Below are positions 1 to 8,808 of a DNA stretch of 8,808 bases, piece by piece. Source of the DNA: a virus (taxonomy: Duplodnaviria > Heunggongvirae > Uroviricota > Caudoviricetes). The translations under genes and the position numbers were made by a program. Numbering within the stretch: the stretch's first letter is position 1; every line of letters starts with the position of its first letter. Under the pieces are notes generated by a model that searched no databases, was not told the DNA's origin, and saw only the letters and a list, made by a program, of their open reading frames with translations. The DNA lies in IMG/VR virus record IMGVR_UViG_2706794492_000011; one strand, given 5' to 3'.

Positions 1-551
1 CTGCGGCGGTTCTGGTAGCGGCATCCAGTGTGACGGTTTCCACGACGCACCAGGAATTATCCACCCATCATTAGCGTCAGGATGCCCCGGGATGTAAGTA
101 GCCCATTTCATTCGCCAGTCACCTTTCCTGTCAAACTCCACGGCAACAAGAACGGCTGTTTTGGTATTCGGCATTCGCTCACTACAGCTTATCCAACCAT
201 CCGGAGTTACCGGAGAATTGCCAGCCTTGCGCATAGCAATCTCCATGATTTCAACCATATCTCCNNNNNNNNNNNNNNNNNNNNNNNNNNNNNNNNNNNN
301 NNNNNNNNNNNNNNNNNNNNNNNNNNNNNNNNNNNNNNNNNNNNNNNNNNNNNNNNNNNNNNNNNNNNNNNNNNNNNNNNNNNNNNNNNNNNNNNNNNNN
401 NNNNNNNNNNNNNTTCTGCTTCCAGCGATGCCAGTGCAATTTTGAATAACTCGCCCTCTACCCGTGCCATCCCTGAATTGGGGTAGCATTTCGCAATCGC
501 TATTTTTAATTTGGCTTCTTCGATTAATTTCTCTTTGGTTAATTCAGTCAC
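1..551 (-). CDS. DUF551-type phage protein; N-terminal part 414-551 and C-terminal domain 1-264 separated by the N gap; 3' end lies beyond window start
   Basis: Minus-strand reading of 264->1 is open to the window edge and translates to ...EIAMRKAGNSPVTPDGWISCSERMPNTKTAVLVAVEFDRKGDWRMKWATYIPGHPDANDGWIIPGASWKPSHWMPLPEPPQ, which fits the DUF551 signature as I recall it (GWIS...MP...WMPLPEPP). The N-terminal piece MTELTKEKLIEEAKLKIAIAKCYPNSGMARVEGELFKIALASLEAE starts at GTG 551. The frame relationship across the N run cannot be determined, so one gene versus two is unresolved. Confidence 0.5.
265..413. other. assembly gap or masked sequence (149 consecutive N)
   Basis: Uninterrupted run of N from 265 to 413, seen directly. 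Confidence 0.95.
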
Positions 552-5693: not shown

Positions 5694-5953
5694 TTAGCGC
5701 CAGTAAAAACAGGTTTCCACAGGTTAATTTACCCTGAAAAGTCAGGGCATAACACGAAAGCGCACGGCGAGATCCCTTTGCATATAAGTCTTGCCGTTAA
5801 ATTTCTTCGACCGTGCGCTTCTGGTTGTGGCAATCCGCGAAATGGCGCGGCGGTAAGTATGGCGGGGTTATTCCTTCCCCTTGAGGACACCGGGTTGTCA
5901 GGCTGACCATACGCTTAAGTGACAACCCCGCTGCAACGCCCTCTGTTATCAAT

Positions 5954-6011
5954 TTTCTGGTGACGTTTGGCGGTATCAGTTTTACTCCGTGACTGCTCTG
6001 CCGCCCTTTTT
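5954..6011 (+). ncRNA. dicF: DicF small RNA (ftsZ-targeting sRNA of Qin-type prophages)
   Basis: TTTCTGGTGACGTTTGGCGGTATCAGTTTTACTCCGTGACTGCTCTGCCGCCCTTTTT matches E. coli DicF as I recall it; ends in a GC-rich segment plus T5; about 170 nt upstream of a dicB homologue. Exact ends are approximate. Confidence 0.6.
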
Positions 6012-6180
6012 AAAGTGAATTTTGTGATGTGGTGAATGCGGCTGAGCGCACGCGGAACAGTTAAAACCAAAAACAGTGTTATGGGTGGATTCTCTGTATC
6101 CGGCGTTAATTGTTAACTGGTTAACGTCACCTGGAGGCACCAGGCACCGCATCACAAAATTCATTGTTGAGGACGCGATA

Positions 6181-6369
6181 ATGGAAACGTCACTACCAAA
6201 CGTTAATACGTCTGAAGGGTGTTTTAATATTGGTATTCTGCTCAGTAACCGGGAGTTTACTGAAGACGCCATCAGGATGAGAAAATATGAGCCTTATCTT
6301 CTCAATGATAATTCCATACTCTCCAGAATTGCCCTTCTTGAACTTGGCATTTTCGGAGGGCAGCAGTGA
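6181..6369 (+). CDS. dicB: DicB-like cell-division inhibitor (MinC-activating), 62 aa
   Basis: METSLPNVNTSEGCFNIGILLSNREFTEDAIRMRKYEPYLLNDNSILSRIALLELGIFGGQQ; N-terminal half closely matches recalled K-12 DicB (METLLPNVNTSEGCFEIG...FTEDAI...), C-terminal half diverges. GAGG 8 nt upstream of ATG 6181. Confidence 0.75.
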   Translation: METSLPNVNTSEGCFNIGILLSNREFTEDAIRMRKYEPYLLNDNSILSRIALLELGIFGGQQ

Positions 6370-6554
6370 GTTCAGCGTTTGCACTGATGATGACGGTTTT
6401 TCTTATAACAGGTGAGCCACAGAATGTGATTACCGGAATTTATGCCAGTAAAGAATCCTGCCATCAGGCAAGAGACGAGCAAAAAATTTCCGGTGAATGT
6501 CTCCCGTTAAACAAAGTATCGCTGTACCTGAATAACGAAATACCGGCTGGATAA
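6366..6554 (+). CDS. small protein with hydrophobic N-terminus, translationally coupled to dicB (positional equivalent of ydfD)
   Basis: GTG start at 6366 overlaps the dicB stop (GTGA); GGAGGG 5 nt upstream. Product (V/M)SSAFALMMTVFLITGEPQNVITGIYASKESCHQARDEQKISGECLPLNKVSLYLNNEIPAG. Family assignment uncertain. Confidence 0.5.
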   Translation: MSSAFALMMTVFLITGEPQNVITGIYASKESCHQARDEQKISGECLPLNKVSLYLNNEIPAG

Positions 6555-6646
6555 CCCGCCAGCCGTATTAACGCCATACCCGTTGATTAAGCATGCCAGC
6601 AATAGCAGGGATTCGTACAACCTTAAAATAGTTATGAGGTTTATCA

Positions 6647-8808
6647 ATGAGCACTGATAAAGAAGAAATTGCACTGTATTACGAAGCCAAAAATGACAAA
6701 GTCAGAAAACGCCTTGGGATTAAAGGCGGTTTTTACTGGCGCACAGCAAAAAAATTATCGGTTGCAATATCACGGGGTGTTGTCGCAATGGACGATGCTG
6801 GATTTGACGAAGAGGATTTCAAAAAACCTGTTCGCGTGAATTTGCCCATTGTTAATGACCTGCCGCCTGAAGGTGTGTTCGATACTGAATTCTGCAACCG
6901 CTATGAAAAAGGCGGAGAAGATGGCATCACAATGATATTTATAGCGCCTTCCCCCTCAGTTCAGGACAAACCAGCCAGCACTGACAATACCAACGTCAAT
7001 GGCGAAGACATGGCTGAGATTGAGGATAATATGCTCCTGCCGATTTCCGGTCAGGAACTGCCCATTCGCTGGCTTGCGCAACATGGCAGCGAAAAACCGG
7101 TAACGCACGTTTCACGGGAAGAACTTCAGGCATTACATATCGCACGAGCTGAAGAACTGCCTGCTGTTACTGCCCTGGCTATTTCCCACAACACAAAGCT
7201 GCTCGACCCGCTGGAGATTCGCGACCTTCACAAACTGGTACGCGACACAGACAAAGTTTTCCCTAATCCCGTTAATTCCAGTCTGGGGTTAATGACTGCT
7301 TTTTTCGAAGCATACCTGGACGCTGACTATACCGATCGAGGTCTGCTGACAAAAGAGTGGATGAAAGGAAATCGTGTTTTACGCATCAGCCGCACGCCAT
7401 CCGGCGCTAATGCTGGCGGAGGAATTCTTACCGATCGCGGTGAAGGTTTTGTCCACGATGATGCGTCAGTGGAACGTGACGTTGCCGCTGGCGTTCTGGC
7501 CCGTTCAATGGACATCGATATTTACAATCCACATCCGGCACACGCCAAACGCATTGAAGAAATCGTTTCAGAGAATAAGCCGCCCTTTTCTGTTTTTCGT
7601 GACAAATTCATCGCCATGCCTGGTCACCTGGATTATTCCCGCGCGATAGTGGTTGCGTCCGTGAAAGAAGCACCAATTGGTATCGAGGCTACTCCCCACC
7701 GTGTTACCGAATATCTGAACAAAGTACTGACCGAAACCGACCATGCCAACCCTGATCCAGAAATCGTGGATATTGCCTGCGGTCGCTCCTCTGCTCCAAT
7801 GCCGCAGCGTGTAACAAAAGAAGGAAAACAGGATGATGAAGAAAAACCGCAGCCATCTGGCGCAATGGCAGATGAACAGGCAACGACTGAAGCAGTGGAA
7901 CCGGATACAACTGAACATAATCAGGACACGCAGTCGATGGATGCTCAGCCACAGATAAATTCTGTTGATGCGAAATATCAGAAACTGCGGGCAGAACTCC
8001 ATGAAGCCCGGAAAAACATTCCGCCCCAAAATCCTGTCGATGCAGACAAATTACTGGCTGCCTCTCGCGGAGAATTTGTTGAAGGGATTAGCGACCCGAA
8101 TGATCCGAAATGGATTAAGGGGATCCAGACCCGCGATTCTGTGTACCAGAATCAGCCAGAAACGGAACAGAACGACCAGAAAGCGGAACAGAACAGCCCA
8201 AATACGCAACAAAACGAGCCAGAAACGAAACAACCTGAACCAGTAGTGCAACAGGAACCGGAAAAGATCTGCACCGCCTGCGGTCAGAGGAGTGGCGGCA
8301 ACTGCCCTGATTGTGGCGCGGTGATGGGCGACGCAACATACCAGGAAACATTCGATGACAAGAACCTGGTTGAAGTTCAGGAAGACGATTCGGAGAAAAT
8401 GGAAGGCGCTGAACATCAGCACAAGGAGAACACTGGCGGCAATCAGCATCATGCCAGCGATAGTGAAACTGGCGAGACGGCAGATCCCTTAATTACGGTG
8501 AACGGTCATCGCATTATCACATCCACCAGCAGGACGTGTGACCATCTAATGATCGACCTTGAAACCATGGGAAAAAATCCTGATGCCCCGATTATCTCAA
8601 TAGGTGCAATATTTTTCGATCCGCAAACCGGAGATATGGGACCGGAATTTAGTAAGACTATCGATCTGGAAACTGCTGGCGGAGTCATTGATCGGGACAC
8701 CATTAAATGGTGGCTTAAGCAATCACGCGAAGCGCAATCTGCCATTATGACCGATGAAATCCCGTTAGATGATGCACTGTTACAATTGCGGGAATTTATC
8801 GACGAAAA
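6647..8808 (+). CDS. recE: RecE-like exodeoxyribonuclease VIII (partial, 3' end beyond window): N-terminal/central RecE region, Q/E/P-rich linker, Cys4 zinc ribbon, then DEDD (DnaQ-like) exonuclease motif
   Basis: Open frame from ATG 6647 (GAGG 7 nt upstream) to the window end, about 720 codons, no stop; absent from the supplied track because it is edge-truncated. Long collinear similarity to recalled K-12 RecE ([40 protein letters not shown]...[19 protein letters not shown]...[21 protein letters not shown]...[26 protein letters not shown]). From about 8520 the sequence reads [26 protein letters not shown]..., a DnaQ-type Exo I (D-x-E) motif. Confidence 0.85.

What the first reader, a model, noticed from the sequence alone, without database searches (positions are those of the whole stretch)
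6355..6570. Small protein translationally coupled to dicB, followed by a hairpin spanning its stop codon
Seen: GTG 6366 overlaps the dicB stop (GTGA) and is preceded by GGAGGG with 5-nt spacing. The product has a hydrophobic N-terminal segment (FALMMTVFLITG) and two cysteines. A 7-bp stem CGGCTGG/CCAGCCG (6544-6550 / 6559-6565) encloses the TAA stop but lacks a clear downstream U-tract. Its position corresponds to ydfD of Qin, reported to be a lysis-inducing protein, so it may be a second growth-arrest effector co-expressed with DicB.
Basis: partly seen in the sequence, partly recalled or inferred. Interest (0 to 1): 0.4.

Follow-up and report, generated by a model that had tools for sequence, protein, structure and literature searches.

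The report
YdfD-family gene coupled to dicB
The small gene after dicB is a diverged copy of the known prophage lysis gene ydfD in an E. coli O157:H7 prophage. It is already annotated in public genomes, and the hairpin at its stop codon is real but no more than chance would give.

Summary
GTG 6366 overlaps the dicB stop (GTGA), GGAGGG lies at 6355-6360 with a 5-nt spacer, and the ORF runs 6366-6554 (62 aa, two cysteines). A 7-bp stem, 6544-6550/6559-6565, encloses TAA 6552-6554.

The window is 100% identical to an O157:H7 lambdoid prophage integrated next to ompW. RefSeq annotates the ORF as a DUF1482 family protein. It matches Pfam DUF1482 (53.8 bits, cutoff 25), is 47% identical over its full length to K-12 YdfD, and sits in the same slot: DicF, dicB, ydfD, exonuclease.

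The 4-nt stop/start overlap is present in all 90 related loci examined (ATGA 62, GTGA 26, ATAA 2). That fixes the start, and dN/dS of 0.17-0.3 supports the reading frame. Lysis through IspG inhibition is inferred from K-12 work only.

The hairpin is stable (-14.6 kcal/mol) and is kept within this allele clade. It is absent from the K-12 and Klebsiella clades, shows no compensatory changes and has no U-tract. One such hairpin per window is expected by chance.

One surprise: AlphaFold (pLDDT 82) places the hydrophobic N-terminus as a beta-strand of a compact globular domain, not a membrane helix.

Verdict: already known, low interest.

The parts
5955..6006 (+). DicF small RNA gene, upstream member of the same operon
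   Evidence: Rfam RF00039, 76.7 bits against a gathering score of 48, E 5e-16. This stretch is 100% identical to K-12 Qin.
6181..6369 (+). dicB (62 aa plus stop), the upstream gene whose stop overlaps the ydfD-like start
   Evidence: Pfam DicB PF05358, E 7e-34; NCBIfam NF049927, 102.2 bits against a cutoff of 100. It is 58% identical to K-12 DicB. RefSeq annotates it as dicB.
6355..6360 (+). Shine-Dalgarno GGAGGG for the ydfD-like gene, lying inside the last dicB codons (F-G-G-Q-Q)
   Evidence: Read directly from the sequence. Related alleles have GGAGAA, GGAGAG, GGGGGG or AAGGA at the same place.
6366..6369 (+). GTGA start/stop overlap (ydfD-like GTG start, dicB TGA stop)
   Evidence: All 90 related loci carry the same 4-nt overlap: ATGA 62, GTGA 26, ATAA 2.
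6366..6554 (+). ydfD-family (DUF1482) gene, 62 aa plus TAA
   Evidence: PF07358, 53.8 bits (cutoff 25), profile positions 1-57 of 57. phrog_1092, E 3e-33. 47% identity to K-12 YdfD. RefSeq WP_000092782.1, 'DUF1482 family protein'. dN/dS 0.17-0.3 within the clade.
6539..6569 (+). Hairpin enclosing the TAA stop. The core stem is 6544-6550/6559-6565, and the 5' arm is codons Pro60-Ala61-Gly62.
   Evidence: -14.6 kcal/mol, z = -4.0. It persists in a 181-nt fold. The GGCTGG/CCAGCC core is kept in all but one (L085) of the 82 window-type loci and is absent in the K-12-type and Klebsiella alleles. It is not above the window-wide chance expectation.
6593..6646 (+). Conserved intergenic block up to the exonuclease start. 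It holds a small TGCCA-GCAA-TGGCA hairpin motif (this window has TAGCA, one pair broken) and the exonuclease SD GAGG at 6636-6639.
   Evidence: The alignment of 27 distinct intergenic sequences shows this block shared by both ydfD allele clades while the flanks differ.
6647..8808 (+). 5' part of the exonuclease gene (Exonuc_VIII family), which runs off the window
   Evidence: Pfam PF06630, E 1e-16. RefSeq 'exonuclease', 2445 nt.

Best explanation
The ORF 6366-6554 is a diverged allele of ydfD, the DUF1482-family small protein gene that follows dicB in the early-left (dicBF) operon of Qin-like lambdoid prophages. Here it sits in an E. coli O157:H7 prophage next to ompW.

Shown by the sequence and comparisons: it is translated from GTG 6366, using the GGAGGG that lies inside the last dicB codons. 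The 4-nt GTGA overlap means a ribosome terminating on dicB is already positioned on the ydfD start. This is the classic arrangement for termination-reinitiation or ribosome-facilitated coupling, so DicB and the YdfD-like protein should be made from one mRNA in a linked ratio.

Inferred from K-12 YdfD experiments: the protein binds and inhibits IspG, starves the cell of isoprenoid (undecaprenyl-phosphate) precursors, and lyses dividing cells. Co-made DicB blocks division and so holds lysis back.

Inferred from structure prediction: the protein is a compact beta-beta-alpha-beta-alpha domain. Its hydrophobic N-terminal segment is a strand of the sheet, and the family-invariant Cys32 and Cys45 lie on the first helix and the third strand.

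The hairpin around the stop codon is most likely a lineage-specific by-product. Its 5' arm is fixed by the invariant Pro-Ala-Gly codons. At most it acts as a weak barrier to 3' exonucleases, and it is not an intrinsic terminator.
For: Identity and annotation: the window is 100% identical to O157:H7 genomes, where the ORF is annotated as a DUF1482 family protein between dicB and the exonuclease gene.

Family membership: PF07358 at 53.8 bits over the full profile, phrog_1092, and 47% identity, 68% positives and no gaps against K-12 YdfD.

Synteny: K-12 Qin has dicF-dicB-ydfD-ydfE(exo) with the same 4-nt overlap. Phages mEp460 and PPompW have the same order.

Start codon: 62 of 90 homologous loci have ATG at the exact position of this GTG, and all 90 overlap the upstream stop. 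Residues 2-7 are conserved, and K-12-type alleles have no internal Met.

Coding frame: dN/dS is 0.17-0.3.

Function in K-12: lysis, suppression by DicB or SulA, IspG binding and rescue by ispG or HMBPP (PMC8835842). One polycistronic transcript covers ydfABC-dicF-dicB-ydfD (PMC10448788).

Structure: AlphaFold2 with 22 family sequences gives pLDDT 82, pTM 0.62 and elements E5-12, E18-26, H29-39, E43-47, H48-55. A BFVD model of another DUF1482 protein superposes with TM 0.56-0.60.
Against: At 47% identity, the target and the phenotype are not guaranteed to carry over. No experiment exists for this allele.

The IspG mechanism rests on one paper that used tagged, over-expressed protein.

GTG is a weaker start than ATG, and some database records call the internal ATGs instead (55-aa and 54-aa entries).

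The globular model conflicts with the published description of a hydrophobic, membrane-associated N-terminal domain (Masuda 2016; I could not retrieve it, so this point is from memory). AlphaFold does not model membranes, and the first run with 11 close sequences gave only pLDDT 58.

Coupling itself is inferred from geometry. The SD is predicted to be mostly base-paired (P unpaired 0.18), but that local fold is no more stable than shuffles (z = +0.5).
Confidence: 0.8

Rival explanations
1. The hairpin at the stop codon is a functional RNA element. It could be a barrier to 3' exonucleases or a processing or termination signal that defines the 3' end of a dicB-ydfD message and separates it from exonuclease-xis-int expression.
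For: The hairpin is stable: -14.6 kcal/mol, z = -4.0. It survives in the larger fold. The 6-bp core GGCTGG/CCAGCC is unchanged in all but one (L085) of the 82 window-type loci, while loop and flanking positions vary. In K-12 a transcript ending after ydfD, and nothing longer, was detected (PMC10448788).
Against: There is no U-tract on the + strand. The 5' arm is fixed by the invariant Pro-Ala-Gly codons, and there is no compensatory change anywhere. The loci are closely related, so the conservation is weak evidence. The hairpin is absent from the K-12 clade, the one in which the post-ydfD transcript end was seen, and from Klebsiella. One such hairpin per window is expected by chance. Some alleles have lost the stop and translate through the stem (74-aa forms).
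Confidence: 0.2
2. The protein is translated from an internal ATG (6387 or 6390), giving a 55- or 54-aa product. The GTGA overlap is then incidental.
For: Public databases hold 55-aa and 54-aa versions that begin MMTVFL / MTVFL for GTG-type alleles. ATG is a stronger initiator than GTG.
Against: There is no SD-like sequence upstream of 6387/6390. The homologous position of the GTG is ATG in 62 of 90 loci. Residues 2-7 are conserved at the protein level although they lie outside dicB. K-12-type alleles have Val-Leu at positions 8-9, so the long form is the only option there. The Pfam profile begins at residue 4. The AlphaFold strand begins at residue 5.
Confidence: 0.07
3. This allele has diverged in function. 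It shares the YdfD fold but acts on a host target other than IspG, or is not lytic. Together with the equally diverged C-terminal half of DicB, it would form a swapped module.
For: The protein is only 47% identical to YdfD and DicB only 58% identical to K-12 DicB. By contrast, the 280 nt upstream, including DicF, are about 100% identical to K-12. That is a sharp mosaic boundary inside dicB. The N-terminal segment is less hydrophobic than in K-12.
Against: The family-invariant residues (Leu7, Gly16, Cys32, Cys45) and the C-terminal E-x-P-A-G are kept. Selection is purifying. The operon position is identical. Mosaicism of this kind is normal for lambdoid prophages and need not change function.
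Confidence: 0.2
4. The hydrophobic N-terminus is a membrane anchor or a cleavable Sec signal peptide (ITG|EP fits the -3/-1 rule). The two conserved cysteines would then form a periplasmic disulfide.
For: There is an uncharged run of 16 residues, with small residues at -3 and -1 before Glu17. The C-terminal part is net acidic (4 K/R against 6 D/E). The two cysteines are invariant.
Against: There is no positively charged n-region. The Kyte-Doolittle 19-residue mean of 1.27 is below the usual 1.6 threshold. AlphaFold builds residues 5-12 into the sheet with pLDDT of about 83. The reported target, IspG, is cytoplasmic, and Cys-less mutants still bind it (PMC8835842).
Confidence: 0.07

Closest known systems
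YdfD of the E. coli K-12 Qin cryptic prophage (b1576; Pfam DUF1482, PF07358)
   Same: Both belong to the same Pfam family. They align over the full length at 47% identity without gaps. They share a similar length (62 against 63 aa), the invariant Gly16/Cys32/Cys45 and the C-terminal EIPAG. The operon slot is the same (DicF, dicB, ydfD, exonuclease), as is the 4-nt start/stop overlap with dicB.
   Different: The start codon is GTG rather than ATG, and the SD is stronger (GGAGGG against AAGGA). The N-terminal segment is less hydrophobic. A GC-rich hairpin over the stop codon is lacking in K-12. The downstream exonuclease gene is intact here, whereas K-12 ydfE is a pseudogene. No functional data exist for this allele.
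Single-gene lysis proteins that inhibit cell-wall precursor synthesis (phiX174 E on MraY, Qbeta A2 on MurA, phage M LysM on MurJ)
   Same: According to PMC8835842, YdfD works in the same manner. It is a small phage protein that blocks one host enzyme needed for envelope precursor supply, so that dividing cells lyse.
   Different: There is no sequence or fold relationship. YdfD is encoded in the early-left operon of a temperate lambdoid prophage next to a division inhibitor, not as the lysis gene of a small lytic phage. These prophages carry their own holin/endolysin cassettes elsewhere (my general knowledge of lambdoid prophages, not tested here). Phage E is a true membrane protein, whereas this protein is not predicted to be one.
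Translationally coupled gene pairs with ATGA/GTGA overlaps (for example trpB-trpA and many phage early genes)
   Same: The stop of the upstream gene overlaps the start of the downstream gene by 4 nt, and the SD is embedded in the upstream coding sequence. The overlap is universal across the family, including a Klebsiella phage where the upstream gene is not dicB.
   Different: Coupling has not been measured for dicB-ydfD in any allele. Here it is inferred from the geometry only.

Membership tests
YdfD / DUF1482 (PF07358) | Match to the Pfam profile above the gathering score | tested here: met
   53.8 bits against a cutoff of 25, E 1.8e-14, profile positions 1-57 of 57. Also phrog_1092, E 3e-33.
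YdfD / DUF1482 (PF07358) | Full-length similarity to the characterised K-12 YdfD | tested here: met
   29 of 62 residues identical (47%), 68% positives, no gaps, E 2e-21.
YdfD / DUF1482 (PF07358) | About 60 aa with the family-invariant Gly16, Cys32 and Cys45 | tested here: met
   These residues are invariant or nearly so in alignments of 31 and 22 family representatives. All are present in the window protein.
YdfD / DUF1482 (PF07358) | Position directly after dicB, overlapping its stop, and before the exonuclease gene in a lambdoid early-left operon | tested here: met
   Among the loci with readable upstream sequence, the upstream ORF is a 62-aa DicB in all but the Klebsiella locus.
YdfD / DUF1482 (PF07358) | Lysis on expression, suppressed by DicB or SulA | not testable with these tools
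   Known only for K-12 YdfD (PMC8835842, citing Masuda 2016).
YdfD / DUF1482 (PF07358) | Binding and inhibition of IspG | not testable with these tools
   Reported for K-12 YdfD only (PMC8835842).
Rho-independent (intrinsic) terminator | GC-rich stem-loop | tested here: met
   A 7-bp stem with 6 G-C pairs and an 8-nt loop, -14.6 kcal/mol.
Rho-independent (intrinsic) terminator | U-tract immediately 3' of the stem on the transcribed (+) strand | tested here: not met
   The stem is followed by UAUUAACGCC. The scan reports the site only on the minus strand (tail GTATTTCGTT), where no transcript is expected. The scan total was 4 sites against 1.8 +/- 1.3 expected.
Conserved structured RNA element | Base pairs maintained by compensatory changes across homologues | tested here: not met
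   The core is invariant within one closely related clade with no double changes. It is absent in the K-12-type and Klebsiella alleles. Rfam finds nothing there.
Single-pass membrane protein | Hydrophobic helix long enough to span the bilayer (about 19 residues or more, Kyte-Doolittle mean above 1.6) | tested here: not met
   The uncharged run is 16 residues and the best 19-residue mean is 1.27 (K-12 YdfD gives 2.0). AlphaFold models residues 5-12 as a beta-strand, pLDDT about 83. No dedicated TM predictor was available.
Translationally coupled gene pair | Stop/start overlap with the SD inside the upstream ORF | tested here: met
   GTGA at 6366-6369 and GGAGGG at 6355-6360. The overlap is present in 90 of 90 loci.
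Translationally coupled gene pair | Downstream translation depends on upstream translation | not testable with these tools
   The SD is predicted to be mostly paired (P unpaired 0.18), but the fold is not better than shuffles. This needs a reporter experiment.

The most novel reading that the evidence does not exclude
The YdfD/DUF1482 family may not be membrane-anchored at all. It may be a small soluble beta-beta-alpha-beta-alpha domain whose all-hydrophobic first strand forms an exposed sticky sheet face used to bind its target or to dimerise. The sharply diverged 'DicB C-terminus plus YdfD' module of this O157:H7 prophage could then be an allelic variant with an altered host target.
Probability: 0.25. 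Interest if true: 0.35.

Novelty: already known. Interest (0 to 1): 0.12.

Why it matters
The finding matters little beyond confirmation. The gene is already annotated as DUF1482 in thousands of E. coli genomes, and its K-12 homologue is a published lysis protein. The overlap with dicB is also noted in the literature.

This check adds four modest points.
- The 4-nt overlap is universal across the family. That settles the GTG start, which some databases miscall as an internal ATG.
- O157:H7 carries an allele only 47% identical to the studied YdfD, so the IspG mechanism should be re-tested on it.
- Structure prediction questions the membrane-anchor picture.
- The stop-codon hairpin should not be read as a terminator.

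Tried and rejected
- **Intrinsic terminator on the + strand.** Rejected because there is no U-tract.
- **Minus-strand terminator.** The scan hit at 6565-6544 with tail GTATTTCGTT has no convergent gene or convincing promoter. The only minus-strand promoter-like site nearby scores 9/12, and promoter counts are at shuffle level.
- **Structured RNA family.** Rfam finds only DicF in the window.
- **SD-sequestering stem** (6330-6337/6355-6362) as a coupling device. The local fold is no better than shuffles (z = +0.5) and the stem is not kept in the commonest allele.
- **Anti-phage defence families.** No PADLOC hit for either protein.
- **NCBIfam.** No model matches the YdfD-like protein.
- **Masuda 2016** (PMC5975272) could not be retrieved. 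Its content is cited only through PMC8835842 and from memory.
- **Species-level genome scan.** It gave only 7 loci, and the word-indexed protein search returned only close relatives. The exhaustive profile search shows the family is small: 52 clusters at 50% identity among 1.84 billion proteins.
- **First AlphaFold run** with 11 close sequences was uninformative (pLDDT 58).

Full report
**1. Observation**

- GGAGGG occupies 6355-6360.
- Five bases (CAGCA) follow.
- GTG is at 6366-6368, and TGA 6367-6369 is the stop of the upstream gene, giving a GTGA overlap.
- The ORF 6366-6554 encodes 62 aa: MSSAFALMMTVFLITGEPQNVITGIYASKESCHQARDEQKISGECLPLNKVSLYLNNEIPAG. It has two cysteines, at positions 32 and 45.
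- CGGCTGG (6544-6550) pairs with CCAGCCG (6559-6565) around an 8-nt loop that contains TAA 6552-6554.
- The 3' flank UAUUAACGCC is not a U-tract.

**2. What the locus is**

The 601 bases around the finding are 100% identical to many E. coli O157:H7 chromosomes. In strain FRIK944 the region is a lambdoid prophage next to an ompW remnant. It is annotated, in order:
- DicA-like repressor
- DUF1391 (YdfA-like) protein
- dicB (window 6181-6369)
- 'DUF1482 family protein' WP_000092782.1 (window 6366-6554)
- exonuclease (from 6647)
- excisionase
- integrase

Rfam places DicF at 5955-6006. Pfam confirms DicB (E 7e-34), DUF1482 (53.8 bits, cutoff 25, whole profile) and Exonuc_VIII.

K-12 Qin has the same order: dicF, dicB, ydfD ('lysis protein'), then ydfE, an exonuclease pseudogene. 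The window protein is 47% identical to K-12 YdfD over all 62 residues without gaps (E 2e-21). DicB is 58% identical to its K-12 counterpart.

**3. Start codon and coupling**

I collected 92 loci: the window, K-12, phages mEp460, PPompW and a Klebsiella phage, 7 species-level genome loci and 80 IMG/VR contigs. In the 90 loci with usable upstream sequence, the start always overlaps the upstream stop by 4 nt: ATGA 62, GTGA 26, ATAA 2.
- An SD-like GGAG/AGGA lies 5-8 nt upstream in every allele.
- Among the loci with readable upstream sequence, the upstream ORF is a 62-aa DicB in all but one.
- The exception is the Klebsiella phage, where a different 37-aa ORF precedes the gene with the same ATGA overlap.

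Residues 2-7 are conserved although they lie outside dicB, and K-12-type alleles have no internal Met. Some database entries nevertheless start GTG-type alleles at Met8 or Met9, giving 55 or 54 aa. The comparative evidence says these are miscalls.

Within the clade, dN/dS against the window allele is 0.17-0.3, so the frame is under purifying selection. Coupling itself is inferred from the geometry. A predicted stem that would mask the SD is no more stable than shuffled sequence and is not conserved.

**4. The hairpin**

It folds at -14.6 kcal/mol, with z = -4.0 for the 51 nt chosen around it, and it persists in a 181-nt fold. Four observations argue against a selected function.
- A window-wide count finds exactly one perfect GC-rich 7-bp hairpin. 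Dinucleotide shuffles give 0.86 +/- 1.15.
- The 5' arm is the codons CCG-GCT-GGA for Pro-Ala-Gly, which are invariant among the close family members aligned.
- The 6-bp core is unchanged in all but one (L085) of the 82 window-type loci while loop and flank positions vary. There is no compensatory change, and these loci are close relatives.
- K-12-type and Klebsiella alleles have no hairpin there.

Some alleles have lost the TAA and read through the stem for 12 more codons. The terminator scan recognises the site only on the minus strand, where nothing is expected to be transcribed towards it. I conclude that the hairpin is real but probably incidental. A weak role as a 3'-end barrier cannot be excluded, and I put it at about 0.2.

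In K-12, which lacks this hairpin, a ydfABC-dicFB-ydfD transcript with nothing longer was reported (PMC10448788). Any 3' end there must be set by something else. One candidate is the conserved intergenic block described in section 7.

**5. The protein**

The family is small: 52 clusters at 50% identity among 1.84 billion proteins. Gly16 and Cys32 are invariant, and Cys45 and Leu7 nearly so.

The hydrophobic run is only 12-16 residues. The best 19-residue Kyte-Doolittle mean is 1.27, against 2.0 in K-12 YdfD.

AlphaFold2 with 11 close sequences was poor (pLDDT 58). With 22 diverse family members it gave pLDDT 82 and pTM 0.62, with topology strand 5-12, strand 18-26, helix 29-39, strand 43-47, helix 48-55. 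The 'hydrophobic N-terminal segment' is thus modelled as a strand of a small sheet, not as a membrane helix.

**6. Mechanism**

Everything about function comes from K-12.
- Over-expressed YdfD lyses cells.
- DicB or SulA co-expression prevents lysis.
- YdfD binds IspG.
- ispG over-expression or HMBPP rescues the cells.
- Cys-less mutants still bind IspG (PMC8835842).
- Deleting ydfD does not affect DicB-mediated phage resistance (PMC6832061).

By homology, the window gene most likely encodes a division-dependent lytic inhibitor made in a fixed ratio with its functional antagonist DicB from one DicA-repressed mRNA. At 47% identity the transfer of target specificity is an inference, with perhaps 0.6-0.7 confidence.

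**7. Context noticed**

Identity to K-12 is about 100% from 5900 to the dicB start. It then decays inside dicB to about 50% across ydfD. This is a mosaic boundary within dicB.

A roughly 50-nt intergenic block (6593-6646) is shared by both ydfD clades. It contains TGCCA-GCAA-TGGCA and the exonuclease SD. Both ydfD types occur with both exonuclease 5' types, so the block behaves as a recombination linker between modules.

**8. Verdict**

The gene, the family and the arrangement are already known. Interest is low.

Noticed in passing
window 5900-6400: There is a sharp mosaic boundary. The sequence is about 100% identical to K-12 Qin from 5900 through DicF to the dicB start. Identity then falls inside dicB to about 50% through ydfD. 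The conserved DicB N-terminus (residues 1-15) is joined to a diverged C-terminal half.
   Followed up: partly
window 6593-6646: A conserved intergenic block lies before the exonuclease gene: ATGCCAGCAATGGCAGGGATT...ATGAGGTT. It is shared by both ydfD allele clades. It contains a 5-bp stem with a GCAA loop, and this window has G-to-A at 6604, which breaks one pair. All four combinations of ydfD type and exonuclease 5' type occur, so the block looks like a recombination linker between modules.
   Followed up: partly
window 6544-6565, minus strand: On the minus strand the same hairpin is followed by GTATTTCGTT and is scored as terminator-like. No convergent gene or convincing promoter exists to use it.
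   Followed up: partly
P0006, P0043 (74 aa); equivalent to window 6552-6590: Some alleles have lost the TAA stop and extend by 12 codons (YPASHINAIPTD) through the 3' arm of the hairpin.
   Followed up: no
two IMG/VR loci among L013-L092 (upstream string TTTTCGGAGAACGTCAATAA): The start codon is ATA instead of ATG or GTG, and the overlapped upstream stop is TAA. These may be inactivated or poorly translated copies.
   Followed up: no
L004 2891-3192 (Klebsiella phage ST13-OXA48phi12.4): The DUF1482 homologue follows a 37-aa non-DicB ORF with the same ATGA overlap. A further small ORF separates it from the exonuclease gene. Coupling to the upstream gene is therefore kept even without dicB.
   Followed up: partly
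window 265-413: A run of 149 N (masked bases) interrupts the ORFs at the left end of the window.
   Followed up: no
L008 (JAGZPX010000007.1, labelled MAG: Veillonella parvula): A contig binned as Veillonella carries an Escherichia-type dicB-ydfD-exonuclease locus. This is most likely a binning contaminant.
   Followed up: no
P0107 (848 aa, 13 stretches) and P0131 (1031 aa, 6 stretches): Two long proteins match a short part of the DUF1482 profile many times over (positions 35-55 and 21-37). These are probably repeats or artefacts and are unrelated to the family.
   Followed up: no
E. coli genomes: Sequences related to this dicB-ydfD segment occur in 4541 of 5426 complete E. coli genomes. The median is 2 places per genome and the maximum is 9, with 5-8 places in the O157:H7 strains listed.
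   Followed up: no
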